IMG/VR virus record: IMGVR_UViG_3300045988_150584
Strand: one strand, 5' to 3'
Length of the DNA: 64,000 nt
Origin: a virus
Below, piece by piece: positions 8,883 through 26,081 of the stretch; positions within the stretch are counted from its first letter, which is position 1, and the number at the start of each line of letters is the position of its first letter. Both the position numbers and the translations under genes were made by a program. Under the pieces are notes generated by a model that made no database searches, had not been told where the DNA came from, and worked only from the letters and a program-made list of their open reading frames with translations.

Positions 8883-8894
8883 TAGCTACTTGTA

Positions 8895-8950
8895 ACGACG
8901 CGAACAGCAATTTTCTTACATATATTTGGGTTATATCGTACATGCGTCGT
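8895..8950 (+). ncRNA. Stand-alone hairpin element R1 (ACGACGC...GCGTCGT) with ACAGCAAT just inside the stem
   Basis: 7-bp closing stem; interior starts GAACAGCAATTTTCTT. Same design as 9169-9225 and 10563-10626. Confidence 0.35.
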
Positions 8951-8978
8951 GTGAAATAAAACTTGGAGGAATGATGTC

Positions 8979-9158
8979 GTGAAGCTGAAGTTCAATGTTG
9001 GTGATCGTGTTTTTGATAAGAAGTACGGTCATGGTGTGGTTCAGAGAGTTGATGCTGGAAACAGCGAGTTCCCGTATCTTATCTTCTATGAAGATGGTAC
9101 GAAGATCTGGTATAAGGCAAAGGGTGTAACTCTTGCCCCTGCGGAACAGCAGGATTAA
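8979..9158 (+). CDS. hypothetical small protein (59 aa)
   Basis: Hand translation VKLKFNVGDRVFDKKYGHGVV...; GTG 8 nt after GGAGGA. Confidence 0.55.
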   Translation: MKLKFNVGDRVFDKKYGHGVVQRVDAGNSEFPYLIFYEDGTKIWYKAKGVTLAPAEQQD

Positions 9159-9168
9159 GTAAGTTAAA

Positions 9169-9225
9169 AAGACGCAAACAGCAATCTAATAAAATCAAAC
9201 TTGAAATTTGACAGGTAAGCGTCTT
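9169..9225 (+). ncRNA. Hairpin element R2 (AAGACGC...GCGTCTT) with ACAGCAAT
   Basis: 7-bp closing stem; interior starts AAACAGCAATCTAAT. Confidence 0.35.
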
Positions 9226-9237
9226 GTGGTGTGATAT

Positions 9238-9328
9238 GGAGTAGTAATCCTAATTGGTAAGGAAGTAGTTTGCTAAACTACCAGTAATCGGGAACGATGT
9301 GCAGGTTCGAGTCCTGTCTACTCTGCCA
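9238..9328 (+). tRNA. tRNA-Ser (anticodon GCU), class II, encoded CCA
   Basis: Hand fold: acceptor GGAGTAG/CTACTCT, anticodon arm GTAGT-TTGCTAA-ACTAC, long variable arm with ATCG/CGAT stem, T arm GCAGG-TTCGAGT-CCTGT. Confidence 0.85.
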
Positions 9329-9490
9329 ACAAAAGCAAGTAGACAAAGAGAAAGTCTGTTCGCAATCGAAGCCGGCAATCATTGATTATTTTGTCCGCTT
9401 TCTTCACGGTAACTGCATGGCAGTAGTGCGAATACAAAACAGATTGGGTTCTGTTGTATGGGAGTGTGGCCTATACCTTGCTTGATATAT

Positions 9491-9577
9491 GCTGATGTGA
9501 TGGAACTGGCATACATGGGGGACTTAAAATCCCCCGCCGATTGTGGATTATGGGTTCGACTCCCATCATCAGCACCA
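9491..9577 (+). tRNA. tRNA-Leu (anticodon UAA), class II, encoded CCA
   Basis: Acceptor GCTGATG/CATCAGC, anticodon arm GGGGA-CTTAAAA-TCCCC, 15-nt variable region, T arm ATGGG-TTCGACT-CCCAT. Confidence 0.85.
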
Positions 9578-9659
9578 GCCGTTGTGATGATCGGCTTTCA
9601 TCTCCTTCTTTGTGTGACGGTGGGACAGACCACTACTGCCGTGTAAGTGCGGCATAAAT

Positions 9660-9771
9660 GAGAGCGTCTGGATGACAGCTTTAAGGTGTATCGAACGGCG
9701 GACACCTACAGCAATGTTCTTTAAGAAAACTGGAATTTTTCTGCTTACGGGTTCGATTCCCGTAGCTCTCA
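9660..9771 (+). ncRNA. tRNA-like RNA, 112 nt, about 40 extra nt on the 5' side
   Basis: Acceptor GAGAGC(G)/(A)GCTCTC, T arm ACGGG-TTCGATT-CCCGT, candidate anticodon arm GAAAA-CTGGAAT-TTTTC, extra hairpin GGTGT-12 nt-ACACC and CTACAGCAAT motif. Confidence 0.5.
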
Positions 9772-9841
9772 AGAGCCGTTAAATAATCTTCTCGAACTGG
9801 TGAGCAATTCACAACTTCTCTGGGAAGATGTAATAAGAAAT

Positions 9842-9952
9842 GCAGAGGTAGCTCAGTCGGTAGAGCATCAGACAAAAAATGTGCTAAGCATTAGCGCTAA
9901 CAGCAATGTTAAAGGAATCCGAGTGTCGGAGGTTCAAGTCCTCCCCTCTGCG
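9842..9952 (+). tRNA. tRNA-shaped gene whose anticodon stem closes a 45-nt loop (9873-9917)
   Basis: Perfect acceptor GCAGAGG/CCTCTGC, D arm GCTC-AGTCGGTA-GAGC, T arm GGAGG-TTCAAGT-CCTCC, V loop GTGTC, anticodon stem TCAGA/TCCGA. Loop contains CGCTAACAGCAAT. Confidence 0.6.
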
Positions 9953-9959
9953 TCTATAT

Positions 9960-10031
9960 TCGTGCGTAACATCTGCGAAAGTACACCGTGGATGCGATTG
10001 GTATATGTCAGTTCGATTCTGACCGCACGAG
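9960..10031 (+). ncRNA. tRNA-like RNA, 72 nt, no D arm
   Basis: Acceptor TCGTGCG/CGCACGA and T arm GTCAG-TTCGATT-CTGAC; the middle folds as an 8-bp stem (CATCTGCG/CGTGGATG) with a 9-nt loop. Confidence 0.4.
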
Positions 10032-10110
10032 CCTATGCGGTGTCTCACTGAAATAAATGTGGTGTGGGTGAGTAAAATCAGGGCTGTTGAAGAACTTGTA
10101 TCGTAGCGCT

Positions 10111-10180
10111 GCGGTGCATGGAACGTCTGGCAGAAGCAGTTTTACAATACAGAGCTGTTCGAGTCAGCTCCACCGCCCCA
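10111..10180 (+). ncRNA. tRNA-like RNA, 70 nt including encoded CCA, no recognisable D or anticodon arm
   Basis: Acceptor GCGGTG(C)/(C)CACCGC, T arm AGCTG-TTCGAGT-CAGCT, then C-CCA. Confidence 0.4.
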
Positions 10181-10183
10181 AAT

Positions 10184-10298
10184 GCCAGGGTAGCTCAATC
10201 GGTAGAGCGCGTAATAACGCGACTTGTTAAGCCGCTTGCAGCAAATTTCTTTTGGTCTGTTAAACCCGTGGTTGCAGGTTCGATTCCTGCCCCTGGCT
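10184..10298 (+). tRNA. tRNA-Asn (GUU) interrupted by a 42-nt insert (10212-10253) inside the 5' strand of the anticodon stem
   Basis: Removing 10212-10253 gives a 73-nt cloverleaf: GCCAGGG/CCCTGGC, GCTC/GAGC, CGGGT-CTGTTAA-ACCCG, TGGTT, GCAGG-TTCGATT-CCTGC. Confidence 0.65.
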
Positions 10299-10384
10299 CA
10301 ACGTGAATGACTGCTTAAACCATTCTAAACCGACACGACAAAAGGGCAGAAATGGTGACAGCTCGGAGAGACGAGCATCTATAT

Positions 10385-10502
10385 ACGGCAGTGGTGAAGC
10401 GGTAACACAGCAGCCATACAAATGCGAAAAGTGGATTTTCGCTAACAGCTATTTCACAATCCAAGCTGCCAATCGTAGGTTCGATTCCTACCTGCCGTTC
10501 CA
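10385..10502 (+). tRNA. tRNA-shaped gene whose anticodon stem closes a 50-nt loop (10415-10464), encoded CCA
   Basis: Acceptor ACGGCAG/CTGCCGT, D arm GTG-AAGCGGTAA-CAC, anticodon stem GCAGC/GCTGC, V CAATC, T arm GTAGG-TTCGATT-CCTAC. Loop has hairpin GCGAAAA-GTGGA-TTTTCGC and CGCTAACAGCTAT. Confidence 0.6.
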
Positions 10503-10562
10503 CGGGTATAGAGTTGACTTTTCCGTTCAAACAGCCCCTTATAAAGTTGGTAGTAACGGTAT

Positions 10563-10626
10563 GAGACGCACACAGCAATTTGTAAGTAAAGTATTTAGCC
10601 TGATAAGCGGATTTCTTTTGCGTCTC
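10563..10626 (+). ncRNA. Hairpin element R3 (GAGACGCA...TGCGTCTC) with ACAGCAAT
   Basis: 8-bp closing stem; interior starts CACAGCAATTTG and ends ATTTCTTT. Confidence 0.35.
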
Positions 10627-10694
10627 GCCCCTCCTTTAAGACACAGACAGCATCGAATGTGAAATGGTGTCTTGAAGGCTATTTCAAACAAAAA

Positions 10695-10728: not shown

Positions 10729-12273
10729 ATGAATGGTTTTATGTCTGCTATGAAAAGCACTTTGAACGATGAGTTCAATGTTTCTGTTACCGAAAACGGT
10801 GCTGTTGGCTATCGTACTACCGGCAAGGAACTATTGGATCTCAACTTTGCCGTTGCATCTCTTCGTAAGGCATCTCCGAGCGATATTGCAAACCGCTTCG
10901 TCAGAGCGTTTTTCGAGGATAAGATTACGGCAATGAAATGGCTGTTCTTTGCGCGTGATGTTCGTGGTGGTCTTGGCGAGCGTCGTTTGTTCCGCATCGT
11001 GTTTCAGCGTATGGCGGAGGAAAATCCGGAATACATCATTCCGCTGATTTCCCTTGTGCCTGAGTATGGACGCTATGACGATTTGTGGTGTTTGCTCGAT
11101 ACAAAGCTTGCACCTAATGTGCTGAACATCATTGCGCAGCAGCTCCGCGATGACATTCAGAATTTGAGCGATGGCAATAGTATTTCTCTTCTCGCAAAGT
11201 GGCTTCCGTCTGCGAATGCTCATTCCGCTGACGCAAAGCGTTATGCTAAGCAGATCTACAAGTTTATGGGCATTTCTGAGCGCGACTACCGTAAGGTGCT
11301 GTCCAAGCTGCGTTCTAAGCTGGATATCGTGGAGAAGAAAATGTCCGAAAAGCGTTGGGATGAGATTGCGTATGAAGCTGTCCCGTCTCGTGCAAATCTG
11401 ATTTACAACTCCGCATTCCTTCGTAACGACGAAGATCGCCGCCGCGATTTCCTGTCCCGTTTGGAAAAGGGCGAAACGAAAATCAATGCGTCTACGCTTT
11501 TCCCGCATGACATTGTTGCAAAGTATAGCGATGGCTGGCGTGGCCTGAAGCCTACGGATAAAACACTGGAAGCTCTTTGGAACGCACTTCCCGATACCGT
11601 AAACGGATGCGGCAATACCATCGTCGTTGCGGATGGCAGCGGCAGTATGACCGTGAATGTCGGTGGCAGCAATGTTACCGCACTGGCTGTTGCAAATGCA
11701 CTTGCGATTTATTTCGCAGAGCGTTCCTCTGGTCAGTTCAAGGACAATTACATTACATTTTCTGAGCATCCTCAGCTCGTCGATTTGAGTAAGGGCAAGA
11801 ATCTCCGCGAGAAGATTCAGATTGCGCTTAAACACAGCGAGGTAGCAAACACAAATATCGAAGCGGTGTTTGACCTTATCTTGACTACGGCAAAGAAAAA
11901 CAACATGGGACAGAGCGATCTTCCTGCAAATATCCTTATTATCTCCGATATGGAGTTTGACTACTGCGCAACATCGAATGGTGGAAGCAGATATAATCGT
12001 GGTCGCGTTGATTCTCGTCTGTTTGACAAGATTGCAAAGCGCTATGAGGATGCTGGGTATAAACTGCCAAGGCTCGTGTTCTGGAACGTGAATAGCCGCA
12101 CGAATACCATCCCTATTAAGGAAAACGAGATGGGAGTTGCGCTTGTAAGCGGTTTTAGTCCGAACATCGCAAAGATGGTGATGAGTGGTCAAACTGATCC
12201 GTATGAGTGTCTGCTTGAAACGCTGAACTCTGATCGCTATAAGCCTATCGGTGACGCTCTGGAAAATCAGTAA
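10729..12273 (+). CDS. DUF2828-like alpha-repeat plus vWA (MIDAS) protein; architecture reminiscent of Ro60/TROVE-vWA
   Basis: ORF track 10672..12273; ATG 10729 after AAGGAGG. FFARDVRGGLGERRLF and YGRYDDLW segments; C-terminal vWA with DGSGS MIDAS motif. Confidence 0.8.
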   Translation: MNGFMSAMKSTLNDEFNVSVTENGAVGYRTTGKELLDLNFAVASLRKASPSDIANRFVRAFFEDKITAMKWLFFARDVRGGLGERRLFRIVFQRMAEENPEYIIPLISLVPEYGRYDDLWCLLDTKLAPNVLNIIAQQLRDDIQNLSDGNSISLLAKWLPSANAHSADAKRYAKQIYKFMGISERDYRKVLSKLRSKLDIVEKKMSEKRWDEIAYEAVPSRANLIYNSAFLRNDEDRRRDFLSRLEKGETKINASTLFPHDIVAKYSDGWRGLKPTDKTLEALWNALPDTVNGCGNTIVVADGSGSMTVNVGGSNVTALAVANALAIYFAERSSGQFKDNYITFSEHPQLVDLSKGKNLREKIQIALKHSEVANTNIEAVFDLILTTAKKNNMGQSDLPANILIISDMEFDYCATSNGGSRYNRGRVDSRLFDKIAKRYEDAGYKLPRLVFWNVNSRTNTIPIKENEMGVALVSGFSPNIAKMVMSGQTDPYECLLETLNSDRYKPIGDALENQ

Positions 12274-12656: not shown

Positions 12657-12967
12657 TGCCAGATGTTGTTATGACGAATCATAGTGTGAAGCGAACAAAA
12701 GAAAGAATTGGACTAAGCAAGAAAATCGCAGATAAGAACGCGCAGAGAGCGCTTGAATACGGTGTTACGCACTCTGAGGCAAAAGGTGGCTTATGTCGGT
12801 ATCTTGATAAACTGTATCTGTCGAATGGTAATGCAAATAATGTTCGCGTTTATCACAGATATGTATATCTCTTTCGTGGGAACACGCTTTTGACAATCAT
12901 TCCATTACCAAACAAATTCTATGCTCTGGCGGACAAACTTCAAAAGCAGAAAGGCGAAATAGAATGA
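12656..12967 (+). CDS. hypothetical protein
   Basis: ORF track 103 aa; start overlaps the preceding stop. Confidence 0.6.
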   Translation: MPDVVMTNHSVKRTKERIGLSKKIADKNAQRALEYGVTHSEAKGGLCRYLDKLYLSNGNANNVRVYHRYVYLFRGNTLLTIIPLPNKFYALADKLQKQKGEIE

Positions 12968-13920
12968 GAATTGTAAAAACACATACTGGAAAAATTTATG
13001 TTGATAAGGATAAGAAACTGGAATTTTTAACGGTTGGCGACTATGGCAAGGAAAACAATATTAAAGCAAGTTTTCTTGGTTTGAACAAAGAAATCAACGG
13101 TGTTCAACATCATACGGTTGACCTGGCGGATAAGTGGGTTGCTACTATCAGCACTCAGAAAGGTTGTCCGATGAATTGCCAGTTTTGTGATTGCCCGAAG
13201 TATGGATTTCACGGAAATGTATCTCGTGAGGAACTGGCTTATGAAATTGAGACAATTCTTGCAAACGAACGAGTAACACATACTAATCGTTTCAATGTTC
13301 ACTTTGCTCGCATGGGTGAGCCTACATTCAACGATGCCGTTCTTCCGTTTGCTGAATTTGATTTGAAGCCGCTGGTTAAGCGGTTTATTACGGCAGATAC
13401 AATTCATCCTGTTGTTTCAACTATGCTTCCGAAAGCAAATGCCAATTTGAAGTCATTCATCATGGAATGGTGTCGCATTAAGAACAGTGTGTACAGTGGA
13501 GAAGCTGGTCTGCAATTTAGCATCAATTCGACGAATCAGGCGCAGCGTAATGAACAGTTTAACGGAAAGAGCTTATCCTTATCAGAAATTTCAAGTCTCG
13601 CATCTAAGCTTCCTACGCCGGTCGGTAGAAAATACACATTGAATTTTGCGGTAACGGCTGACACGATTTTGGATGCGGTGGAGCTTGGGAAGCTGTTCGA
13701 TAAGGAAAAGTTTATCGTAAAAATTACGCCGATTCACCAGACAAATGCAGCCATTAAGAATGGATTTGATGTGACCACGGAATATACTGACTACGATGTT
13801 TACCGCAAGTTTGAAGATCCACTTGTTGCTGCTGGATGGGATGTCATTGTGTTCGTACCGAGCGAGGAAGAAGATAGCGACCGTATTACTTGCGGGAATG
13901 CCTTAATTTCAGATAAGTGA
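12964..13920 (+). CDS. radical-SAM enzyme resembling the RlmN/Cfr RNA-methylating family
   Basis: ISTQKGCPMNCQFCDCPKYGFHGN (CxxxCxxC), RMGEPTFN, C-terminal DRITCGNAL. Pattern recalled from RlmN (SSQVGC..C.FC, MGMGEP, AACGQL). Confidence 0.65.
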   Translation: MRIVKTHTGKIYVDKDKKLEFLTVGDYGKENNIKASFLGLNKEINGVQHHTVDLADKWVATISTQKGCPMNCQFCDCPKYGFHGNVSREELAYEIETILANERVTHTNRFNVHFARMGEPTFNDAVLPFAEFDLKPLVKRFITADTIHPVVSTMLPKANANLKSFIMEWCRIKNSVYSGEAGLQFSINSTNQAQRNEQFNGKSLSLSEISSLASKLPTPVGRKYTLNFAVTADTILDAVELGKLFDKEKFIVKITPIHQTNAAIKNGFDVTTEYTDYDVYRKFEDPLVAAGWDVIVFVPSEEEDSDRITCGNALISDK

Positions 13921-13928
13921 GGTGCAGG

Positions 13929-14336
13929 ATGTACAAGCACTACGAAAACATTACAAGAGAAGTTTTGGATACAATAAAGGTTGGAGATTTGGTCAGAGTA
14001 AACGATTGGACGAGTCCAATGCTTGTGAAAGCGGTATCTAAGAATTTCTTTGTGATGACTTGTAAGAAAGGCGAAGATACATATTACTCTGTGTGTTCAA
14101 AACTGCCGTGGGACGGTATTCGTCACAATGCTATGGTTGGCGGCATGTTCCATTGTGGATGTGATGATTGGATTTTCGGGACGCCGCTTGGAATTAGAGA
14201 CGAAAACATCTACCAGTTTAATGATCCGGAGTTAAATAGGTTGTATCTACAAGAGTTTGAGGATGGTAAAACGCACATTTCTGAACGAAATGGAGCTGCT
14301 ATCTATGATTTGTATGTAGAGCGCTGTGATGACTAA
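13929..14336 (+). CDS. hypothetical protein
   Basis: ORF track 13917..14336; ATG 13929. Confidence 0.6.
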   Translation: MYKHYENITREVLDTIKVGDLVRVNDWTSPMLVKAVSKNFFVMTCKKGEDTYYSVCSKLPWDGIRHNAMVGGMFHCGCDDWIFGTPLGIRDENIYQFNDPELNRLYLQEFEDGKTHISERNGAAIYDLYVERCDD

Positions 14337-14350
14337 GGAGGTTATGCAAG

Positions 14351-14626
14351 ATGGTTGTAAGTCTACGCGAAATAGTGATGTCGCATGAAAAGATTTATTC
14401 GCTGCTCTATTCTCCGTGTAGAATCGAGAGTGACCCGATTGAAAAGCAGATTGTAGAAATTAGTACGAAGTCTCTGCGTTGGTCGGATGATGGGACGATG
14501 TTTGTCTATGTCTGGGGTTGGCCTGGGCCGGACTTTAACAGATATTCTGCAAAGACATACGGAAAAGGCTGGGCATTTACAAAACAGGAAATCATTGATG
14601 CCTGGGAGAGCGAGAATAGGAAGTAG
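14351..14626 (+). CDS. hypothetical protein
   Basis: ORF track 91 aa; AAGGAGG upstream. Confidence 0.6.
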   Translation: MVVSLREIVMSHEKIYSLLYSPCRIESDPIEKQIVEISTKSLRWSDDGTMFVYVWGWPGPDFNRYSAKTYGKGWAFTKQEIIDAWESENRK

Positions 14627-14635
14627 CAAATCAAT
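14619..14635 (+). promoter_or_regulatory. Leader motif instance GGAAGTAGCAAATCAAT
   Basis: Overlaps stop codon TAG 14624-14626. Confidence 0.3.
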
Positions 14636-14729
14636 CCTATGTACAGTTCATTTCTTAAAATAATTCACTGAAAAACACAGAGTTTTTCGTTGCAAGCAAG
14701 CGCAACTAATGATTGGAGTGTAATTTGCC

Positions 14730-15110
14730 ATGCCCCTTAAAACACCTGAATCACAGCGACGAATGGCTGAAATGCAGCACATGAGAGACTGTGGATTTAC
14801 TTTGCAGCAAATCGGAGATCAATATGGAATAAGCCGAGAGCGAGTTCGTCAGATTGTAAATAACATTCACAAGAAAAAGCGTACTTGTGGTGTGAAAAAT
14901 ATCTGCTATCCAAATTTCAAAAAATGGGCGCTTGATAATGGGTATTCCACTTTAACAAAGCTTGCTAATGATATGGATATGTGTTCATCTCTTGTTAGAA
15001 GTCTTCTGATCAAGGGTGAACCCCCTACAAAGCGCTCCATTAGGAAGATAACTGAATTCACTGGAATGTCTGCGGATGAAGTATTTTATCTACCGGATGT
15101 TGCAGCGTAA
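14730..15110 (+). CDS. sigma-70 region-4-like HTH protein (candidate phage transcription factor)
   Basis: CGFTLQQIGDQYGISRERVRQIVNNI resembles sigma region 4.2. Confidence 0.6.
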   Translation: MPLKTPESQRRMAEMQHMRDCGFTLQQIGDQYGISRERVRQIVNNIHKKKRTCGVKNICYPNFKKWALDNGYSTLTKLANDMDMCSSLVRSLLIKGEPPTKRSIRKITEFTGMSADEVFYLPDVAA

Positions 15111-15116
15111 AGATTG

Positions 15117-15150
15117 GTAAGCAAATTGTTATTACGATGGGTAGTTATAA
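15117..15150 (+). promoter_or_regulatory. Bipartite motif copy D: GTAAGCAAA-N12-TGGGTAGTTATAA
   Basis: Same spacing; 19 nt upstream of ATG 15169. Confidence 0.35.
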
Positions 15151-15168
15151 CGAAAGGGGTGTGGTTGC

Positions 15169-15480
15169 ATGAATGGTCTTGGTGAGGCTGTGATGATAAC
15201 ATGGGCTGAATATGGTCTAAAAATCGAAAATACGAGTGAAACAGCAGAATCACTTGTGATTTATGTTTCTGTCCCAGAGCATAGTTACAAAAGAAATGCC
15301 AGAGGCTCTGAAATGGCTGCTATGGATCTTGCAAAACGATTTAAGACCGTAATGACGGAGATGGGCGTTAAGCGTTTGACCGTTAAAGCCCGCGTTCGTG
15401 CTGGTGAATACTGGACGAAAGAAATGGCTGATAGCGCCAATATCGAGATGCGAAAAAACATCTTTGGAAGTCAATATTAA
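15169..15480 (+). CDS. hypothetical protein
   Basis: ORF track 103 aa. Confidence 0.6.
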   Translation: MNGLGEAVMITWAEYGLKIENTSETAESLVIYVSVPEHSYKRNARGSEMAAMDLAKRFKTVMTEMGVKRLTVKARVRAGEYWTKEMADSANIEMRKNIFGSQY

Positions 15481-15494
15481 GGAGGGTGTAATAG

Positions 15495-16574
15495 GTGATT
15501 AAGAAGGTTGATCGGAAAAATCGGTTTGTAGCAATGTTTAATCCTACAACTGGCTTCTATGCTCGTAGTGGTGTGATTGATGAGAATGGGCATGACACCG
15601 GCGTAGATCCGTTTATGACAGCATTCCCAGAGCTGATTGATGTCGGTGTGATGGGTCATTGTGTCCACGGAGCAAGCGGTCTTTGCTTTAAGTCTGGCGT
15701 TCAGTGTTATCAGAACGGACTAAAGACAAAAGAACCAAATATGACGCTTGAAAATTTCAAACGCATTGTTGATGAATGTAGGGGTAAAACATTCCAGCTC
15801 GCGCTTGGTGGTCGTGGTGATGTTGACCAGCACGAAAATTTTGCTGAGATTTTGCAGTATTGCAGGGAAAACAATATCGTGCCGAATTTCACTTCTTCAG
15901 GGCTTGGCTTTACAGATGAGATTGTAGATCTGTGTAAAAGATACTGTGGTGCAGTAGCAATCTCCTGGTATCGCCAGAAGCATACATACCGTGCGATTCA
16001 GATGCTTTTGGATGCTGGCGTAAAAACGAACATTCATTATGTTCTTGGAAACAATTCCATTGAAGAAGCAATTATGCGGCTAAAAAATAATGGTTTTCCT
16101 GCTGGCATTAACGCAGTGATTTTCCTTCTTCACAAACCCGTTGGACTCGGCAGCGAAGAGAATGTTTTGCAGATGGATAACCCGCTCGTAAGACAGTTCT
16201 TTGAGATTGTGGATATGCAGAAATTCAATTTCAAAATTGGCTTCGATTCATGTTCTATTCCAGCCGTTTTGAATCTGACTCACAATATCGACCACGATAG
16301 TATTGATACTTGCGAGGGCGGCAGATGGAGCATGTATATCACAAGCGACATGAAAGCTTTGCCCTGTAGTTTCGATAATCAAGAGCTGCGTTGGGCATTT
16401 GATATTAGCAATTCCAGTATCGAAGAAGCTTGGAATAGTCCGCAGTTTGAAAGATTTAGAAGTCATTTCAGAAATTCTTGCCCGAATTGTCAGTGCCAAC
16501 ACGCTTGTATGGGCGGTTGTCCGATTCGTCCGCAAGTAGTTTTGTGCGATAGGGCGGAAAAGGAGCTGTATTAA
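15495..16574 (+). CDS. radical-SAM/SPASM-domain-like protein with non-canonical N-terminal Cys spacing
   Basis: C-terminal CPNCQCQHACMGGCP cluster. The N-terminal triad is CVHGASGLCFKSGVQC rather than CxxxCxxC. GTG start after AAGGAGGG. Confidence 0.65.
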   Translation: MIKKVDRKNRFVAMFNPTTGFYARSGVIDENGHDTGVDPFMTAFPELIDVGVMGHCVHGASGLCFKSGVQCYQNGLKTKEPNMTLENFKRIVDECRGKTFQLALGGRGDVDQHENFAEILQYCRENNIVPNFTSSGLGFTDEIVDLCKRYCGAVAISWYRQKHTYRAIQMLLDAGVKTNIHYVLGNNSIEEAIMRLKNNGFPAGINAVIFLLHKPVGLGSEENVLQMDNPLVRQFFEIVDMQKFNFKIGFDSCSIPAVLNLTHNIDHDSIDTCEGGRWSMYITSDMKALPCSFDNQELRWAFDISNSSIEEAWNSPQFERFRSHFRNSCPNCQCQHACMGGCPIRPQVVLCDRAEKELY

Positions 16575-20490: not shown

Positions 20491-21930
20491 ATGTACGCAG
20501 CATATGTAACTCGTATTAAGAATTTGCGCAAACATTCAAACGCGGATCGACTTCTCTGCGGTGAATGTTTTGGCAATACGGTAATTGTGGGCTTGGATAC
20601 AAAGCCAGAAGAGCTGGGTGTCTATTTCCCCGTAGATGGCAAGCTTGGCACTGAGTATGCGGTGAAGAACGACCTGCTTCGCCGTAAGGATGAGAACGGT
20701 AAGCCTGCTGGTGGTTATCTCGATCCTGAAAAGCGTAATATTAAGGCGTTGAAGCTTCGTGGCGAAAAGAGCGATGGCTTGTTTATGCCATTGTCCAGTT
20801 TGAGTGGGTTCACAGATATTGCAAAGCTCCGTGATGGCGATGTAATTACCATTTTGAATGGTGTTACAATTTGTGAGAAGTATATCCCCCATCGTAAGAA
20901 GAGTACCATTATGGTTGGGGGGGGTAGGACTCGTAAGCATCACGATCCTGTTGCTCCGCTCTTTGCGGAACATGCTGACACGGAACAGCTCGCATATAAC
21001 CTCAGCGCATTTCACCCAGGCGATCTTGTTGAGATTACTTTGAAAATGCACGGCACATCTCAGCGAACCGGATATCTACCAATGCTTAAAGGATATAAGA
21101 AGACATTGCTTGATAAGCTCCTACATCGCATTGGTTCTCCGATTTATAATTGGGGATATGTAACTGGTACTCGTCGTGTTGTCTTGGATGATTTTGACGG
21201 TGGCTTTTATGGTAGCAATGCTTTCCGTGAACAGCATAGCAAGGTTTTTGAAGGTAAGCTGCATAAGGGCGAAACCGTGTACTATGAAGTCGTTGGCTTT
21301 ACGCAAGACAAGCAGCCTATTATGGCATCTTGCGACAATAAAAAAGTCGGTGATAAGGAATTTGTTAAACAATACGGCGAAAAGACAGTGTTTAGCTATG
21401 GTTGCTATCCAGACGGTGTAAAGGAAGTAACAAATCCGAAAATTACACACGCAACAGTAATGATTGGCGATACCTCTTTTACAGCAAATGAGATTACGGA
21501 ATATGAATCTGCTCCGCAGTCTGATTTCTATGTGTATCGAATGACAATGACAAATGAGGATGGCGATGTTGTTGAATACACACCAGACTTTATGCGTTAT
21601 CGTTGTGAACAGATGGGCGTTAAGTGTGTTCCGCTATTTGCTCGATTCATTATTCCGGATTACATTCAGCTTCCTGATGCTGTTGGGTCTCCGATGGCTG
21701 TCAATGCTGGCGAATATGTCAAGGAAATTGCTGAAAACTTCTATGATGGTGCAGACCCGATTGGTAAGTCGCATGTCCGCGAGGGCGTTGTTTGCCGTAT
21801 CGTAAACCGCCCAAAGTTTACAGCATATAAGCACAAGAATTTTGCATTCAAGGTGCTTGAGGGAATTGTAAAGGATGTTGCGTCTGCTCCGGACATGGAA
21901 GAAGCGCAAGATGATGTAAGCGTTGCATAA
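20491..21930 (+). CDS. ATP-dependent RNA ligase (Rnl2/Rnl5-like, N-terminal OB-like domain)
   Basis: Ligase motif I KMHGTS, EGVVCRIV, YKHKNFAFK. In-frame G8 tract at 20917-20924. Confidence 0.75.
   Translation: MYAAYVTRIKNLRKHSNADRLLCGECFGNTVIVGLDTKPEELGVYFPVDGKLGTEYAVKNDLLRRKDENGKPAGGYLDPEKRNIKALKLRGEKSDGLFMPLSSLSGFTDIAKLRDGDVITILNGVTICEKYIPHRKKSTIMVGGGRTRKHHDPVAPLFAEHADTEQLAYNLSAFHPGDLVEITLKMHGTSQRTGYLPMLKGYKKTLLDKLLHRIGSPIYNWGYVTGTRRVVLDDFDGGFYGSNAFREQHSKVFEGKLHKGETVYYEVVGFTQDKQPIMASCDNKKVGDKEFVKQYGEKTVFSYGCYPDGVKEVTNPKITHATVMIGDTSFTANEITEYESAPQSDFYVYRMTMTNEDGDVVEYTPDFMRYRCEQMGVKCVPLFARFIIPDYIQLPDAVGSPMAVNAGEYVKEIAENFYDGADPIGKSHVREGVVCRIVNRPKFTAYKHKNFAFKVLEGIVKDVASAPDMEEAQDDVSVA
20917..20924 (+). 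repeat. G8 homopolymer (in frame, Gly-Gly-Gly)
   Basis: Counted in sequence. Confidence 0.95.
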
Positions 21931-22050: not shown

Positions 22051-22872
22051 ATGAGTGACAGAGAAAAGATTATGAAGCGGCTTTCTGAACACCTCGAAGC
22101 AGTAAGAGACAAACACCCTGAGTGGGTTGGTATTTTTCTTCAAGGTTCACAAAACTACAACTTAGATTATGAGGGCAGCGATATTGATTCCAAGCTGATC
22201 GTCCTCCCTTCGTTTGAAGATTTTGTTTTGAACAAGAGACCGTATAGCTACACACACATCATGGAAAACGATGAACATGTAGATGTTAAGGATATTCGTC
22301 TGATGCTCGATTGCTTCAAAAAGCAGAATGTAAATTTTGTTGAGATTCTTTTTACCCCGTACCGTATCTTGAATCCAAAGTACGAAGCTTTGTTTCAGCC
22401 GATTCTTGATATTGCAGAGAGAGTCGGTCGATATAACAACTATGCTGCATTGAACTGCATGGTCGGAATGGCGCTTGAAAAGCAAAAGGCATTGTGCCAC
22501 CCATATCCTGCAACAAAAGACAAGATTGATAAGTACGGTTTCGACAGCAAACAGTATCATCATATCGAGCGTCTTTATGAGTTCATGCAGCGTTGGCTTA
22601 ATGGCGAGCCATATCGTGATTGCCTCATTTCTAAGCAGAGAGAACGTCTTAGAGAAATCAAGCTTTATATTAACTGCGATCTTACAACGGCGCAGGCCAA
22701 TTCGGACAGAATTGTATCTGAGATGAAGTCAATCAAGGACACTTATATGCAGCAGAATCCTGTCGTGATAGATCGTGAGGTTGATTCAGTTTTCAATAAG
22801 GTTTTGCTTGATTTATTTAAGTTTAATTTCCAGTGTGAGATTGGTAACGGCTCGCCTAATAAAAAGGAGTAA
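22051..22872 (+). CDS. Pol-beta-superfamily nucleotidyltransferase (RlaP-like, RNA-ligase-associated)
   Basis: GIFLQGSQNYNLDYEGSDIDSKLIV (GS...DxD). Confidence 0.7.
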   Translation: MSDREKIMKRLSEHLEAVRDKHPEWVGIFLQGSQNYNLDYEGSDIDSKLIVLPSFEDFVLNKRPYSYTHIMENDEHVDVKDIRLMLDCFKKQNVNFVEILFTPYRILNPKYEALFQPILDIAERVGRYNNYAALNCMVGMALEKQKALCHPYPATKDKIDKYGFDSKQYHHIERLYEFMQRWLNGEPYRDCLISKQRERLREIKLYINCDLTTAQANSDRIVSEMKSIKDTYMQQNPVVIDREVDSVFNKVLLDLFKFNFQCEIGNGSPNKKE

Positions 22873-22876
22873 GAAT

Positions 22877-23791
22877 ATGTCTATCTTTTTTATGATGGTA
22901 GGTCTTCCGTACAGCGGAAAATCTGTTTATGCGGAGGGGCTGCGAGAGAAGTTCGGTGCAGAGATTCATTCCAGCGATGCAATTCGAGCAGAGATCCTTG
23001 GAGATGTACAGGATCAGACAAACAATCAGATTGTTTTTGATACTCTGCACAAGCGAGTAATTTCTGATTTGTCTGCTGGTAAAAATGTAATTTACGATGC
23101 GACGAATATCAATTACAAGCGGCGTATTGATATGCTGAATCGCTTGTCGAAGGTGAAGTGTCAGAAAGTCTGTATCGTTATGGCGACACCTTTTCACGAA
23201 TGTGAAGAGCGTAGCAAGCATCGTGAGCGGGTTGTCCCACACGAGGTTCTTGTGCGTATGTATAAGAATTTCTGGCTTCCGTATTGGTATGAGGGGTGGG
23301 ACGCAATCGAGCTTGTTTATCCAGATAATTTTGAGCCGTACAGTGTAAGTGATTTATTTAATCGTGATGGAGGGCTGAATAGCTTTGAGCAGGACAATCC
23401 ACATCATACTTTCACGGTTGGGCATCATTGTATCGCTACATATGGGCTTGTTTCTGATGGAAGCACAGAGCTTCAGGAGGCTGCTCTTCTTCATGATATC
23501 GGAAAGCCTTTCACAAAAAGCTTTGTGAATAGCAAGGGCGAAACAACAGAGATTGCTCATTATTATGAACATCAGCATGTTTCCGCCTATGATAGCTTAT
23601 TCTACTCAAATCCGAGTTTGAATCGGCTGTATATCGCAAATATCATCCAGTGGCATATGCGTCCGTTTGAGCTTGAACGAGACCCCCATTCTGGCAAAGC
23701 GCAGAAGCGGTTCAAAAAGCTTGTCGGCAATAAGCTTTATTCAGATGTGATGAAGCTTCATGCCGCTGATATCGAAGCAAAAGGAACTTGA
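22877..23791 (+). CDS. polynucleotide kinase (P-loop) fused to HD phosphohydrolase
   Basis: MMVGLPYSGKS Walker A, DATNINYKRR, then HH...LLHDIGKP. ATG 22877 after AAGGAG (track ORF starts 22775). Confidence 0.8.
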   Translation: MSIFFMMVGLPYSGKSVYAEGLREKFGAEIHSSDAIRAEILGDVQDQTNNQIVFDTLHKRVISDLSAGKNVIYDATNINYKRRIDMLNRLSKVKCQKVCIVMATPFHECEERSKHRERVVPHEVLVRMYKNFWLPYWYEGWDAIELVYPDNFEPYSVSDLFNRDGGLNSFEQDNPHHTFTVGHHCIATYGLVSDGSTELQEAALLHDIGKPFTKSFVNSKGETTEIAHYYEHQHVSAYDSLFYSNPSLNRLYIANIIQWHMRPFELERDPHSGKAQKRFKKLVGNKLYSDVMKLHAADIEAKGT

Positions 23792-24648
23792 TAAACAATA
23801 CAAAGTGGGTGTTTGGCATTTACAGTAAAGAAGACTTAGATGTAATGCAGTCATGGGATTTGCAGCGAAAAATTCAAGTGACTACAACTCGTATCATTGA
23901 GTGGTATGAGCATTTCGGCGGAAGCGTTTATGTTGCTTTTTCTGGTGGTAAAGATAGTACGGTTTTGCTTGATATCGTTCGCCGTATTTACCCAGATGTG
24001 CCGGCTGTATTTTGTGACACTGGCTTGGAATTTCCGGAAATCCGAGAGTTTGTTAAGCAGCATGATAATGTTGTGATTCTGCGACCTGAGATGAATTTCA
24101 GAAAGGTCATCGAAACATACGGATATCCAGTTGTCTCAAAAAGAGTTGCCGACACTGTAGAATATGGCAGTAAGCCAGGTTCTTATCGGTGGAAAGAGCT
24201 TCACGGAGAGATTATCCGTAGCAATGGTACTCCGTCGGAGTTTAACTGCGAAAAGTGGCGCTATCTTCTGGACGCCCCATTTAAGGTTTCTTCTCGTTGC
24301 TGCAATATTATGAAGAAGAAGCCGCTGAAGAAGTATTTCAAAGAAACTGGTCGCGTTCCCATTATTGCAACTATGGCAGACGAGAGCCGATCTCGTCGAT
24401 CTACATGGATGAGACAGGGTTGTAATGCTTTTAGTAAGAAATCTCCAAGTTCTCAGCCGATGTCTTTCTGGACAGAAAATGATGTTCTTGAGTATTTGCA
24501 CACCTACAATATTCCCTACGCCTCCGTTTACGGTGAGATCATACCTTGTGGGGGGGGTGGACAACGACAGGTGAAAGAAGAACTGGTTGTGTCTTTTGCG
24601 CATTTGGCGCTCATCTGGAGAAGTCCCCGAACCGTTTCCAGCGATTAA
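23788..24648 (+). CDS. PAPS-reductase-like PP-loop enzyme, main part; frame lost at G8 tract 24550-24557
   Basis: AFSGGKDS PP-loop. After the tract the conserved-looking continuation (RTGCVFCAFG) is in the -1 frame. Confidence 0.75.
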   Translation: MINNTKWVFGIYSKEDLDVMQSWDLQRKIQVTTTRIIEWYEHFGGSVYVAFSGGKDSTVLLDIVRRIYPDVPAVFCDTGLEFPEIREFVKQHDNVVILRPEMNFRKVIETYGYPVVSKRVADTVEYGSKPGSYRWKELHGEIIRSNGTPSEFNCEKWRYLLDAPFKVSSRCCNIMKKKPLKKYFKETGRVPIIATMADESRSRRSTWMRQGCNAFSKKSPSSQPMSFWTENDVLEYLHTYNIPYASVYGEIIPCGGGGQRQVKEELVVSFAHLALIWRSPRTVSSD

Positions 24649-24752
24649 AGGAAACGCATCCTAAGCTATGGGAATATTGTATGAAGCCTTGGAGTGAACA
24701 TGGCTTAGGTATGCGAACAGTATTAGAGTACATTGGTATTCCGTGTGAATAG
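24546..24752 (+). CDS. C-terminal part of the same PAPS-reductase-like gene, in the -1 frame
   Basis: WTTTGERRTGCVFCAFGAHLEKSPNRFQRLKETHP; one extra G (G9) would fuse it to 23788.. Confidence 0.6.
   Translation: MWGGWTTTGERRTGCVFCAFGAHLEKSPNRFQRLKETHPKLWEYCMKPWSEHGLGMRTVLEYIGIPCE
24550..24557 (+). repeat. G8 homopolymer at a frame switch
   Basis: Counted; upstream frame 1, downstream frame 0. Confidence 0.95.
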
Positions 24753-24883: not shown

Positions 24884-24892
24884 GGGGGGGGG
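24884..24892 (+). repeat. G9 homopolymer at a frame switch
   Basis: Counted. Confidence 0.95.
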
Positions 24893-26078: not shown

Positions 26079-26081
26079 AAA

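What the first reader, a model, noticed from the sequence alone, without database searches (positions are those of the whole stretch)
9238..10502. Eight tRNA-shaped genes in 1.3 kb, most with aberrant or hugely expanded anticodon regions
Seen: eight T arms (5-bp stem, TTCGAnT/TTCAAGT loop), each followed by a 7-nt strand that pairs with a strand 60-105 nt upstream. They lie at 9238, 9491, 9660, 9842, 9960, 10111, 10184 and 10385.
- Only 9238-9328 (Ser-GCU) and 9491-9577 (Leu-UAA) fold as ordinary tRNAs.
- 9842-9952 and 10385-10502 keep perfect acceptor, D and T arms and a 5-bp anticodon stem, but the stem closes loops of 45 and 50 nt. I found no excision that leaves a 7-nt loop with U33.
- 9660-9771 is 112 nt.
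- 9960-10031 and 10111-10180 have only an acceptor and a T arm.

Established: known bacterial and phage tRNA introns are group I (>200 nt). Phage tRNAs with altered anticodon loops can evade host anticodon nucleases. Bacterial Y RNAs carry tRNA-like modules and bind Ro (TROVE-vWA) proteins.

Inference: these are either precursors with a new short intervening sequence, or non-decoding tRNA mimics. Such mimics could be nuclease decoys or ligands of the adjacent vWA protein.
Basis: partly seen in the sequence, partly recalled or inferred. Interest (0 to 1): 0.85.

Follow-up and report, generated by a model that had tools for sequence, protein, structure and literature searches.

The report
Phage tRNA mimics carrying Ro-protein tag
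A gut-bacterial virus encodes a row of tRNA-shaped RNAs and hairpins that all carry the same short tag (a helix followed by ACAGCAA), next to a gene for a Ro60-like RNA-binding protein, which points to an undescribed relative of the Ro/Y-RNA particle that is common in phages.

Summary
Seven of the eight tRNA-shaped elements are conserved with compensatory base changes in related phages. The eighth, 10111-10180, is weak.

The inserts are one conserved module: a helix ending C-R-C, 1-3 nt, single-stranded ACAGCAA, then a U/A-rich tail. The module also occurs in four stand-alone hairpins, so the locus spans 8893-10675.

The gene immediately downstream (10729-12273; Pfam DUF2828/DUF7788) is predicted to fold like Ro60 (TROVE plus vWA).

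Module and gene travel together, on the same strand, in gut Clostridia phages and prophages. They also co-occur in Mycobacterium cluster L, Listeria, Enterococcus and Felix-O1-like coliphages. In mycobacteriophage Faith1 the same tRNA-Asn-like chimera is circularly permuted, like bacterial YrlA.

Element 10184-10298 keeps an intact anticodon arm (CUGUUAA). Its 42-nt module branches from the anticodon stem between nt 28 and 29.

Most likely these are Y-RNA-like ligands that tether the Ro-like protein to tRNA metabolism. Binding is inferred, not shown. Short spliced introns are less likely but not excluded. Neither Rfam 15 nor the searchable literature describes the module.

The parts
8893..8952 (+). 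Stand-alone module hairpin H1. Closing stem ACGACGC (8895-8901) / GCGUCGU (8944-8950), then ACAGCAA at 8904-8910.
   Evidence: Covariance model R1 scores 45.7 bits, E 5e-9, but this sequence was in the training set. The motif is listed and the fold.
9167..9227 (+). Stand-alone module hairpin H2. Stem AAGACGC (9169-9175) / GCGUCUU (9219-9225), ACAGCAA at 9178-9184. It lies directly upstream of tRNA-Ser.
   Evidence: R1 scores 54.8 bits (training member).
9238..9328 (+). Ordinary class II tRNA-Ser(GCU).
   Evidence: ARAGORN; Rfam tRNA 49.1 bits.
9491..9577 (+). Ordinary tRNA-Leu(UAA).
   Evidence: ARAGORN; Rfam tRNA 52.9 bits.
9660..9771 (+). tRNA-like RNA of type A, in 5'-to-3' order:
- acceptor stem and a small D-like arm;
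- a 3-bp proximal stem;
- hairpin 9685-9706;
- ACAGCAA at 9708-9714;
- an anticodon-like arm at 9724-9742 (loop CUGGAAU);
- T arm.
   Evidence: Homologues in 42 loci. On alignment A5, 94% of cells are paired and 12 of 20 pairs show compensatory change.
9842..9952 (+). tRNA-like RNA of type B, derived from a tRNA-Pro-like gene. The anticodon stem closes a 45-nt loop. A 38-nt module sits at 9873-9910, comprising hairpin 9881-9897 and ACAGCAA at 9900-9906. The rest of the loop is AAAGGAA, which lacks U33.
   Evidence: Rfam tRNA 52.5 bits. Alignment A4 has 15 of 21 pairs compensatory. Deleting the module in silico gives a Pro(agg)-like tRNA.
9960..10031 (+). tRNA-like RNA of type E: 7-bp acceptor stem, 8-bp hairpin with conserved loop RAAGUACA, and a T arm. 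It has no ACAGCAA module.
   Evidence: Homologues in 21 loci. Alignment A6 has 10 of 20 pairs compensatory.
10111..10180 (+). Possible degenerate tRNA-like element of type F: 6-bp acceptor-like stem and a T-arm-like GAGCUG-UUCGAGU-CAGCUC. Its 5' part resembles type A.
   Evidence: Seen only in the sequence. Homologues exist only in four near-identical loci. The minimum-energy fold does not form the T arm. Weak.
10184..10298 (+). tRNA-Asn(GUU)-like RNA of type C. The anticodon arm GGU-CUGUUAA-ACC (10254-10266) is intact. A 42-nt module (10212-10253) is inserted between nt 28 and 29 of the anticodon stem. The module comprises hairpin 10219-10235 and the motif variant GCAGCAA at 10238-10244.
   Evidence: Rfam tRNA 48.4 bits. 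In 29 of 33 distinct homologues the split 5-bp stem is perfect and the loop is NUNNNAA. Deleting the module gives a canonical tRNA-Asn(gtt).
10385..10502 (+). tRNA-like RNA of type D, derived from a tRNA-Gly-like gene, with an encoded CCA end. A 5-bp anticodon stem closes a 50-nt loop. A 43-nt module sits at 10415-10457, comprising hairpin 10424-10442 and the motif variant ACAGCUA at 10445-10451. The rest of the loop is AAUCCAA, which lacks U33.
   Evidence: Rfam tRNA 48.6 bits. Alignment A3 has 18 of 28 pairs compensatory.
10561..10628 (+). Stand-alone module hairpin H3. Stem GAGACGCA (10563-10570) / UGCGUCUC (10619-10626), ACAGCAA at 10572-10578.
   Evidence: R1 scores 44.3 bits (training member). 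Fold z-score -2.5.
10636..10675 (+). Short module hairpin H4 in the 5' leader of the Ro-like gene. Stem UUAAGACAC / GUGUCUUGA, motif variant ACAGCAU at 10647-10653. It ends 38 nt before the ribosome-binding site at 10714.
   Evidence: R1 scores 25.7 bits, E 5e-4. This sequence was not in the training set and is the only additional hit in 64 kb with filters off. About 24 of 56 related loci have a hairpin ending 15-58 nt (mostly 33-47 nt) before the start codon.
10729..12273 (+). Gene for a 514-aa Ro60-like protein (helical-repeat ring plus vWA domain). Proposed protein partner of the module.
   Evidence: - Pfam: DUF2828 (1e-33), DUF7788 (2e-43) and a weak VWA_2 match.
- PHROG 850, annotated 'RNA-binding protein'.
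- AlphaFold2 model with mean pLDDT 74.
- Foldseek top nine PDB hits are all Ro60/TROVE, E 9e-8 to 1e-5.
20491..21930 (+). RNA-ligase-like protein. Possible accessory for RNA end-sealing. Its link to the locus is inferred only.
   Evidence: Pfam RNA_ligase E 7e-5, below the curated cut-off. The trio of Ro-like protein, RNA ligase and polynucleotide kinase is also reported in cluster L mycobacteriophage LeBron (PMC13148394).
22775..23791 (+). Protein with a P-loop kinase domain (AAA_33) and an HD phosphohydrolase domain, a candidate polynucleotide kinase/phosphatase. Possible accessory; inferred only.
   Evidence: Pfam AAA_33 3e-18 and HD 6e-6.

Best explanation
The locus 8893-10675 is an array of phage non-coding RNAs. 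Each unit displays one copy of a protein-binding module: a helix whose strand just 5' of the motif ends in C-R-C, then 1-3 nt, then single-stranded ACAGCAA and a U/A-rich tail.

The module comes in two forms in the window:
- a bare hairpin (four copies);
- a graft onto the 5' side of the anticodon arm of a tRNA body (four copies: Asn-, Gly- and Pro-derived, plus one divergent type).

I propose that the module is the cognate ligand of the Ro60-like ring protein encoded immediately downstream. As in Ro/Y-RNA particles, one end of the RNA would hold the protein. The tRNA-shaped end would engage enzymes that recognise tRNA, such as RNase P and Z, the CCA-adding and modification enzymes, and possibly synthetases or anticodon nucleases. 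This would couple the Ro-like protein to surveillance, protection or repair of tRNA during infection, probably together with the phage's RNA-ligase-like and kinase/HD proteins. The hairpin in the gene's own leader suggests feedback control of its translation.

Shown: the RNA structures and their covariation, the module, the Ro60-like predicted fold, and the genomic linkage across phyla.

Inferred: physical binding, the tethering role, the link to repair, and autoregulation.
For: 1. Strand-specific enrichment. In 80 related phage loci, [ACT]CAGCAA occurs 443 times on the gene's strand and 10 times on the other strand within the 2 kb upstream. Downstream the counts are 70 and 67 in 270 kb. The 305 distinct copies give the consensus G-R-C-R-C-NN-ACAGCAA-UUUU.

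2. It acts at the RNA level.
- 66% of 139 non-tRNA copies have a closing stem of at least 7 bp, against 9% after shuffling and 20% after swapping partners.
- The 7-bp stem shows A-U to G-C exchanges at four positions.
- All 129 model hits in 56 loci lie on the gene's strand.

3. Specificity. With filters off, model R1 finds only the locus in the 64-kb window.

4. The partner has a Ro60-like fold. The top nine Foldseek PDB hits are Ro60 proteins from phage phiLo, Xenopus, human and Deinococcus.

5. Linkage holds over large distances. Hairpins or chimeras flank the gene in Mycobacterium phage Faith1, Listeria LMLPA3, Enterococcus VRE9_1 and E. coli phage momo, whose proteins are only 33-40% identical to the window's. 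The same is true of prophages of cultured Oscillospiraceae.

6. Protein-independent test. A pattern search gave 29 loci that contain the gene, all on the same strand as the motif.

7. Y-RNA logic. Faith1 carries the same tRNA-Asn-like chimera circularly permuted. Its ends lie in the module helix and its acceptor stem is closed, as in YrlA. De-permuting it and removing the module gives tRNA-Asn(gtt).

8. Negative control. Phage T5 has a 25-tRNA array but no Ro-like gene in its first 100 kb, and no hairpin.

9. Published precedent. Y RNAs lie within 4 kb of Ro60 on the same strand and mimic tRNA (PMC4201824). Phage phiLo Ro60 binds RNAs encoded upstream of its gene (PMC12135203).
Against: - No binding data exist. 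The link rests on co-occurrence.
- A branch of the protein family (L177-L197, 33-36% identical to the L116 protein) has no hairpins or tRNAs within 2.5 kb.
- Prophage loci with roughly 47-55% protein identity in Lachnospiraceae and other genomes gave no R1 hit.
- About 15 loci have hairpins inside large tRNA arrays with no Ro-like gene in the DNA that was fetched. Whether the gene lies further along those contigs is unknown.
- The module does not resemble the known Ro60-binding motifs GNCGAA and GGUCCGA, and the Rfam YrlA model does not score it.
- The C and A types keep canonical anticodon loops, and hairpins can enclose whole tRNAs (L120). Both facts also fit a role in pre-tRNA processing or splicing.
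- The structure model has only moderate confidence (pLDDT 74, TM about 0.5).
Confidence: 0.55

Rival explanations
1. The modules are a new class of short, protein-dependent introns and processing cassettes. A nuclease that recognises the helix plus ACAGCAA would cut them out. The phage kinase/HD and RNA-ligase-like proteins would rejoin the halves, giving working tRNA-Asn, tRNA-Gly, tRNA-Pro and others.
For: - Deleting the inserts in silico gives ARAGORN-recognisable tRNAs. The C type becomes a perfect tRNA-Asn(gtt), and the same holds in 29 of 33 homologues.
- The phage encodes an RNA-ligase-like protein and a kinase/HD protein. The Listeria phage has RtcB nearby.
- The window's phage has only two ordinary tRNAs.
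Against: - The B and D types lack U33 in every register across homologues, so excision would not give canonical decoders.
- Insertion points differ (28/29 versus 31/32), and the distances from the motif to the would-be junctions are not constant.
- The same module occurs in hairpins with no exons, in the mRNA leader, and in a permuted gene where excision would split the RNA.
- ARAGORN's intron mode gives mutually inconsistent solutions.
- No splicing endonuclease was identified. Relative L011 carries ordinary tRNA-Pro and tRNA-Gly alongside module-bearing RNAs.
Confidence: 0.15
2. The hairpins are punctuation for processing long tRNA-array transcripts. They would be leader-trailer helices cut by a host or phage RNase, and the Ro-like gene would be only a frequent neighbour of tRNA arrays.
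For: - Hairpins sit between tRNAs in arrays of 18-22 genes and can enclose a whole tRNA.
- No sigma-70-type promoter or terminator lies inside the window's cluster, which suggests one long precursor.
Against: - ACAGCAA is invariant across phages of Actinobacteria, Firmicutes and Proteobacteria, whose RNase sets differ (established knowledge). This argues for a phage-encoded reader, and the Ro-like gene is the only constant neighbour.
- The module is built into stable tRNA bodies rather than flanks in four window elements.
- The T5 array has no such hairpins.
Confidence: 0.12
3. The tRNA-bodied copies are decoys or sponges for host anticodon nucleases or other tRNA-targeting defences, acting without the Ro-like protein.
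For: - Anticodon-like nucleotides persist (GUU, NCC, NGG) even where U33 is lost.
- tRNA arrays have been proposed as anti-defence devices (PMC12803027 abstract).
Against: This does not explain the conserved ACAGCAA helix, the bare hairpins, or the linkage to the Ro-like gene.
Confidence: 0.08
4. The motif works at the DNA level, as a phage promoter or a small mobile element that has disrupted tRNA genes and left pseudogenes.
For: It is a short conserved sequence repeated in intergenic DNA in one orientation. It sits at varied insertion sites.
Against: - Flanking helices covary with no sequence constraint on the partner strand.
- The interrupted tRNAs keep perfect arms with compensatory changes across phages that share only 40-70% protein identity.
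- There are no consistent -35 and -10 elements.
Confidence: 0.04

Closest known systems
Bacterial Y RNAs of the YrlA type with Rsr/Ro60 (Rfam RF02553; Chen et al. 2014, PMC4201824)
   Same: - The non-coding RNAs are encoded within a few kb of a Ro60-fold protein gene, on the same strand.
- The design is modular, with a protein-binding helix plus a tRNA-like domain carrying D and T arms.
- There are several RNAs per locus.
- The Faith1 and momo versions have the same permuted topology, with ends in the helix and a closed acceptor stem.
   Different: - The protein belongs to separate Pfam families (DUF2828/DUF7788) and shows no sequence-level match to solved Ro60 structures.
- The binding motif is ACAGCAA next to a C-R-C helix, not GNCGAA or GGUCCGA.
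- In the window the tRNA topology is not permuted. The module is an insert in the anticodon arm, and some copies keep a real anticodon loop.
- Bare hairpins also exist.
- The YrlA model scores 20 bits against a gathering score of 69.
Thermus phage phiLo Ro60 with Yrl1 and Yrl2 (PMC12135203)
   Same: A phage-encoded Ro60-fold protein with small RNAs encoded just upstream of its gene. It is the best structural match to the window protein (9kop and 9l5y).
   Different: The phiLo RNAs are stem-bulge-stem Y-like RNAs with a CGAA motif. They have no tRNA body and no ACAGCAA.
Intron-containing and permuted tRNA genes (archaeal bulge-helix-bulge introns, group I introns in bacterial tRNAs, permuted tRNA genes of Cyanidioschyzon; from my own knowledge)
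   Same: tRNA genes are interrupted in or near the anticodon arm, including at non-canonical positions. A permuted gene version exists.
   Different: - The inserts are 38-55 nt, far below group I intron size, and no Rfam intron family matches.
- The position is not 37/38.
- The same insert sequence occurs outside tRNAs.
- No splicing endonuclease was found. A bulge-helix-bulge fold was not tested rigorously.
Phage T4 tRNA repair by polynucleotide kinase and RNA ligase 1 against the PrrC anticodon nuclease (Amitsur et al. 1987, as cited in PMC13148394)
   Same: The phage carries kinase/phosphatase-like and RNA-ligase-like genes together with tRNA genes.
   Different: T4 repair is not known to use a Ro-like protein or tagged tRNA mimics. 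The functional link here is inferred only.
Stable 'tRNA-like RNAs with unknown functions' annotated in the phage T5 tRNA array
   Same: Non-decoding, tRNA-like stable RNAs are interspersed with tRNA genes in a phage array (annotation).
   Different: The T5 RNAs lack the ACAGCAA module, and T5 lacks the Ro-like gene in the 100 kb examined.

Membership tests
Canonical decoding tRNA | Cloverleaf with acceptor, D and T arms that scores above the Rfam tRNA gathering threshold. | tested here: met
   48.4-52.5 bits against a threshold of 29 for 9842, 10184 and 10385. Not met for 9660, 9960 and 10111.
Canonical decoding tRNA | A continuous 5-bp anticodon stem closing a 7-nt loop with U33. | tested here: not met
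   - The loops of 9842 and 10385 are 45 and 50 nt, and no register gives a consistent U33 across homologues.
- 10184 has the 7-nt loop CUGUUAA, but its stem is interrupted by a 42-nt branch.
- ARAGORN in default mode rejects all six.
Bacterial tRNA with a group I intron | A self-splicing intron of more than 200 nt with the group I core. | tested here: not met
   The inserts are 38-55 nt. The Rfam scan at E up to 10 found no intron family.
tRNA with an archaeal or eukaryal-type spliced intron | A bulge-helix-bulge motif at the exon-intron junctions, or position 37/38, with a canonical tRNA after excision. | tested here: inconclusive
   The position is 28/29 or 31/32, not 37/38. Excision gives a canonical tRNA only for the C type. 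Bulge-helix-bulge geometry was inspected by eye only. ARAGORN's intron mode was inconsistent.
Y RNA / YrlA (RF02553) | Encoded close to a Ro60 orthologue, on the same strand. | tested here: met
   The elements lie 54-1836 nt upstream of a gene whose product has a Ro60-like predicted fold, on the same strand. The same holds in 78 of 80 related loci.
Y RNA / YrlA (RF02553) | Contains a tRNA-like domain with T and D arms. | tested here: met
Y RNA / YrlA (RF02553) | The 5' and 3' ends pair to form the Ro-binding stem, which carries GNCGAA or GGUCCGA. The sequence matches the family covariance model. | tested here: not met
   The best YrlA score is 20.4 bits against a gathering score of 69, and there was no YrlA hit at E up to 0.1 in four cultured-phage loci. 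In the window the RNA ends lie in the acceptor stem. The conserved motif is ACAGCAA.
Y RNA / YrlA (RF02553) | Physically bound by the Ro60 protein. | not testable with these tools
   This needs immunoprecipitation or gel-shift assays.
Ro60 / TROVE protein family | A ring of helical repeats capped by a vWA domain (overall fold). | tested here: met
   The nine best Foldseek PDB hits are all Ro60/TROVE over about 500-578 aligned columns, with probability 1.00 and TM 0.33-0.54. The model pLDDT is 74.
Ro60 / TROVE protein family | Sequence-level match to the Pfam TROVE domain or to solved Ro60 structures. | tested here: not met
   Pfam gives DUF2828, DUF7788 and a weak VWA_2 match only. phmmer against PDB sequences finds nothing below E 0.9.

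The most novel reading that the evidence does not exclude
Some of these RNAs may be working, decoding tRNAs that permanently carry an extra protein-binding arm. The candidates are the Asn-type 10184-10298 and its Thr- and Lys-anticodon relatives, and possibly the 9660 type.

The arm branches from the anticodon stem at about the height where class II tRNAs carry their long variable arm. The phage could then mark its own tRNAs with a Ro-like protein, for protection from host nucleases, for privileged use, or for repair.

Alternatively the arm could be removed by a so far unknown short-intron splicing pathway in bacterial viruses. Either outcome would be a new kind of tRNA biology in bacteria.
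Probability: 0.2. Interest if true: 0.92.

Novelty: new variant of a known kind. Interest (0 to 1): 0.78.

Why it matters
- It would give the first RNA partner and recognition motif for the large DUF2828 family of Ro-like proteins. My search found relatives in 711 GenBank phage records, including Felix-O1-like coliphages, Listeria A511/P100-type phages, cluster L mycobacteriophages, and many gut prophages.
- It would extend the Ro/Y-RNA principle to a second, sequence-unrelated motif. It would also show that the same RNA chimera can be encoded in either normal or circularly permuted gene order.
- It explains unannotated gaps, and probably spurious small ORFs, inside phage tRNA arrays. Standard tRNA finders miss these genes.
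- It makes the long-open question of what Ro-type proteins do in bacteria and phages testable in tractable hosts such as E. coli K-12, Listeria and M. smegmatis.
- It may bear on how phages defend their tRNA supply against tRNA-cleaving host defences.

Tried and rejected
- **Rfam.** Scans at the gathering threshold and at E up to 10 returned only tRNA, a sub-threshold YrlA match and chance hits. No ribozyme, intron or known sRNA was found.
- **ARAGORN with introns allowed.** It gave three mutually inconsistent solutions: Leu(tag), Pro(tgg) and Trp(cca). Covariation contradicts them.
- **DNA similarity to GenBank phages.** Only the two ordinary tRNAs matched, so there is no close cultured relative.
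- **Sequence-only search of the PDB with the protein.** Nothing was found. The fold search was needed.
- **Structure prediction with the more diverse alignment A1.** A shallower alignment, A2, was used instead.
- **Promoter and terminator scan of 7.5-12.5 kb.** Nothing was found inside the cluster. The promoter reading was dropped.
- **Pairing of ACAGCAA.** I considered pairing with the 3' strand of the anticodon stem (type D) and with UUGCU (type A). I rejected both because covariation assigns those strands to other partners.
- **Literature.** Searches for DUF2828, PF11443, DUF7788, YrlA, Ro-like with phage, and Ro60 with tRNA arrays found no description of the module. The supplementary tables of Chen et al. 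2014 are not held. I therefore could not check whether any DUF2828 phage was in their list.
- **Tracing the Ro-like gene in contigs with hairpin-bearing arrays.** I used the L116 protein as the query. The search did not return those contigs, so this is unresolved.


Full report
**1. Checking the observation**

ARAGORN in default mode finds only tRNA-Ser(gct) at 9238-9328 and tRNA-Leu(taa) at 9491-9577 in the whole 64-kb window.

The Rfam tRNA model passes its gathering score on five elements. These are the two above plus 9842-9952, 10184-10298 and 10385-10499. Each of the last three is aligned with a 44-55-nt gap in the anticodon region.

The loop sizes of 45 and 50 nt are right.

The elements are not artefacts. 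The same elements recur in many independent phage contigs.

**2.

Reading the inserts side by side, I saw ACAGCAAT or a one-base variant in every long insert. It also occurs in three intergenic hairpins that have no tRNA arms. Five of the seven exact matches in the window lie within 8.9-10.6 kb, all on the + strand.

I fetched 97 loci from IMG/VR that encode relatives of the downstream protein. In 80 of these:
- [ACT]CAGCAA occurs 443 times on the gene's strand and 10 times on the other strand in the 2 kb upstream of the gene;
- downstream the counts are 70 and 67 in 270 kb.

The 305 distinct copies give the consensus G-R-C-R-C, two variable bases, ACAGCAA, then a U/A-rich stretch.

The motif sits in two settings.
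- **Bare hairpins.** The C-R-C strand pairs with a partner 35-50 nt downstream.
- **tRNA-bodied copies.** A local hairpin ends in C-R-C just before the motif. The whole cassette lies in the anticodon arm.

**3. Evidence that this is RNA structure**

- Of 139 motif copies outside tRNA bodies, 66% have a closing stem of at least 7 bp. The figure is 9% when the downstream sequence is shuffled and 20% when partners are swapped.
- In a 52-sequence alignment, the 7-bp stem shows A-U to G-C exchanges at four positions. Those sequences were chosen for having stems, so one search is the unbiased test.
- A covariance model (R1) run over the whole window with filters off finds only four hits at E below 0.01. 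Three are the training hairpins at 8893-8952, 9167-9227 and 10561-10628. The fourth is new: a short hairpin at 10636-10675 (AAGACAC-AG-ACAGCAU...GUGUCUU), 54 nt before the start codon of the downstream gene.
- In 56 related loci, all 129 hits are on the gene's strand. About 24 loci have a hairpin ending 15-58 nt (mostly 33-47 nt) before the start codon.

**4. Anatomy of the tRNA-bodied elements**

| Type | Window coordinates | Covariation | Key features |
|---|---|---|---|
| D | 10385-10502 | 18 of 28 pairs compensatory | 7-bp acceptor, D stem, 5-bp anticodon stem, 7-bp internal hairpin just before CUA-ACAGCAA, T stem |
| B | 9842-9952 | 15 of 21 pairs compensatory | Built the same way as D |
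| C | 10184-10298 | Split stem perfect in 29 of 33 homologues | Intact anticodon arm; module branches from the stem |
| A | 9660-9771 | 12 of 20 pairs compensatory, 94% paired versus 35-56% for slid controls | Same design as C on a more divergent body |
| E | 9960-10031 | 10 of 20 pairs compensatory | Acceptor, T arm and a conserved 8-bp hairpin; no module |
| F | 10111-10180 | Homologues only in four near-identical loci | Weak |

*Types D and B.* The part of the loop that follows the module looks like the 3' side of an anticodon loop: N-N-(G/U)CC-A-A in type D and N-N-NGG-R-A in type B. U33 is absent in most members in any register. Deleting the module in silico gives ARAGORN calls of Gly(tcc) and Pro(agg), with A33.

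*Type C.* The two bases after position 26, together with the three bases just before a 7-nt loop, form a perfect 5-bp stem with the 3' strand. Both sub-helices covary, and the loop is N-U-N-N-N-A-A (CUGUUAA in 17 sequences). The 42-nt module at 10212-10253 therefore branches from the 5' strand of the anticodon stem between nt 28 and 29. Deleting it gives a canonical tRNA-Asn(gtt).

*Type A.* In 5'-to-3' order it has an acceptor stem, a small D-like arm, a 3-bp proximal stem, the module, then a 5-6-bp stem with a CU-NNN-AA loop, and a T arm.

**5. The neighbouring protein**

- ORF 10729-12273 matches Pfam DUF2828 and DUF7788, with a weak vWA signal, and PHROG 850 'RNA-binding protein'.
- A sequence search of the PDB finds nothing.
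- An AlphaFold2 model (pLDDT 74) matches Ro60/TROVE structures as its nine best Foldseek hits. These are phage phiLo Ro60, Xenopus and human Ro60, and Deinococcus Rsr, with E 9e-8 to 1e-5.
- It is the only gene constantly linked to the RNA cluster. An SPFH protein and a 94-aa ORF lie upstream in about 35 of 85 loci, and downstream genes vary.

**6. How far the association reaches**

tblastn finds relatives of the protein in 711 GenBank phage records. I examined four cultured phages whose proteins are only 33-40% identical to the window's. In all four the gene lies in or beside the tRNA array, and module hairpins flank it on the same strand:
- Listeria LMLPA3: three hairpins, with RtcB 1.3 kb downstream;
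- Enterococcus VRE9_1: one hairpin;
- E. coli phage momo: four copies between tRNAs;
- Mycobacterium phage Faith1: three copies just after the gene.

The Faith1 element at L101 5034-5159 is the type C chimera in circularly permuted order. It runs from the module helix strand and ACAGCAA, through the CCA-CUGUUAA-UGG arm, the T arm, an acceptor stem closed by a loop, and the D arm, to the other helix strand. De-permuted and with the module removed, it is called tRNA-Asn(gtt). That is the topology of bacterial YrlA (PMC4201824), although the Rfam YrlA model does not detect it.

Hairpins also flank the gene in prophages of cultured Oscillospiraceae. A 100% protein match lies in an Oscillospiraceae MAG, which suggests the host.

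A protein-independent pattern search of IMG/VR gave 73 loci.
- 29 contain the Ro-like gene, always on the motif's strand.
- About 22 more have genuine hairpins.
- The rest, with no model hit, I take to be chance matches.

The genuine hairpins without a gene in the fetched DNA lie inside arrays of 18-22 tRNAs. In L120 one hairpin encloses a whole tRNA-Thr.

Limits:
- One branch of the family (L177-L197) has neither tRNAs nor hairpins nearby.
- Some prophages with roughly 47-55% protein identity gave no hit.
- As a negative control, phage T5 has 25 tRNAs and several annotated 'tRNA-like stable RNAs with unknown functions', but no hairpin, no ACAGCAA in the array, and no Ro-like gene in its first 100 kb. 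This is one genome only.

**7. Mechanism**

The simplest reading is that helix-plus-ACAGCAA is the ligand of the Ro-like protein, and that the RNAs are the Y RNAs of this protein family. One module would hold the protein and the tRNA-shaped body would engage tRNA-recognising machinery.

Context supports a role in tRNA surveillance or repair. The window encodes an RNA-ligase-like protein (20491-21930, weak) and a kinase/HD protein (22775-23791). Cluster L mycobacteriophages carry the same trio (PMC13148394). The leader hairpin suggests autoregulation.

None of this has been shown biochemically. I put the binding hypothesis at about 0.55.

The main rivals are:
- short spliced introns (0.15), which fit type C but not types B and D, the bare hairpins or the permuted gene;
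- processing punctuation read by an RNase (0.12);
- nuclease decoys that act without the protein (0.08);
- DNA-level elements (0.04), contradicted by covariation and by intact tRNA arms.

**8. Comparison with known systems and novelty**

Functionally this looks like a Ro/Y-RNA system. As a family member it fails the sequence-level tests. The protein is not Pfam TROVE, and the RNA does not match YrlA or carry GNCGAA.

Several features are new relative to what I could find:
- the unpermuted tRNA topology;
- insertion into the anticodon arm;
- canonical anticodon loops retained in two types;
- multi-copy arrays and bare hairpins.

Rfam 15 has no matching family. Six literature searches found no description. 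I could not read the supplementary tables of Chen et al. 2014. I rate it a new variant of a known kind, with interest 0.78.

Noticed in passing
window 59225-63480 (- strand): A complete diversity-generating retroelement. It comprises:
- reverse transcriptase at 59225-60406;
- RT-2 RNA (RF03077, 137 bits) at 60399-60624;
- template repeat at 60639-60764;
- variable repeat at 61402-61527, at the C-terminal end of a DUF6273 protein.

All 21 mismatches fall on template adenines.
   Followed up: yes
L278 (phage T5) 30284-33949 and 40848-41566: The T5 record annotates eight 'stable RNAs with unknown functions' inside its tRNA array, three of them called tRNA-like. They lack the ACAGCAA module, and T5 lacks the Ro-like gene in the 100 kb examined. 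They may be a separate, still unexplained class of phage tRNA-array RNAs.
   Followed up: partly
L011 2740-2960: Three tandem-spaced copies of a different conserved element (CUGCAAGAA...CGAUUGUAAGUAGUGUAAG) lie just upstream of the RNA cluster in a phage whose Ro-like protein is 68% identical to the window's. Unexplained.
   Followed up: no
L013 2536-2698 (also L014-L017): In the clade with 40% protein identity, an ACAGCAA-type hairpin directly precedes a tRNA with anticodon CUA, an amber suppressor that ARAGORN labels Pyl. This hints at stop-codon recoding in those phages.
   Followed up: no
L099 (Listeria phage LMLPA3) 1970-2521: A near-threshold ROOL RNA match (89 bits against a gathering score of 99.1) lies in the same tRNA array, 1 kb upstream of the Ro-like gene. 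RtcB lies 1.3 kb downstream of that gene.
   Followed up: no
window 12964-16574 and 23788-28775: A radical SAM protein and a SPASM-domain protein lie downstream of the Ro-like gene. Further on are two PAPS-reductase-like ORFs next to three DNA methylase genes, possibly a nucleic-acid modification module.
   Followed up: no
window 8979-9158: A 59-aa ORF with a good ribosome-binding site lies between hairpins H1 and H2. It has a weak Tudor-like Pfam match and is conserved only in the seven closest loci.
   Followed up: no
L198-L202 (genome contigs): The Ro-like protein is 100% identical in an Oscillospiraceae MAG. Relatives with 65-66% identity and flanking hairpins lie in large contigs of cultured Hominicoprocola fusiformis, Dysosmobacter segnis and Oscillospiraceae bacterium 50-58. 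This suggests that the window is a temperate phage of Oscillospiraceae. It also encodes a serine recombinase at 52671-54281.
   Followed up: partly
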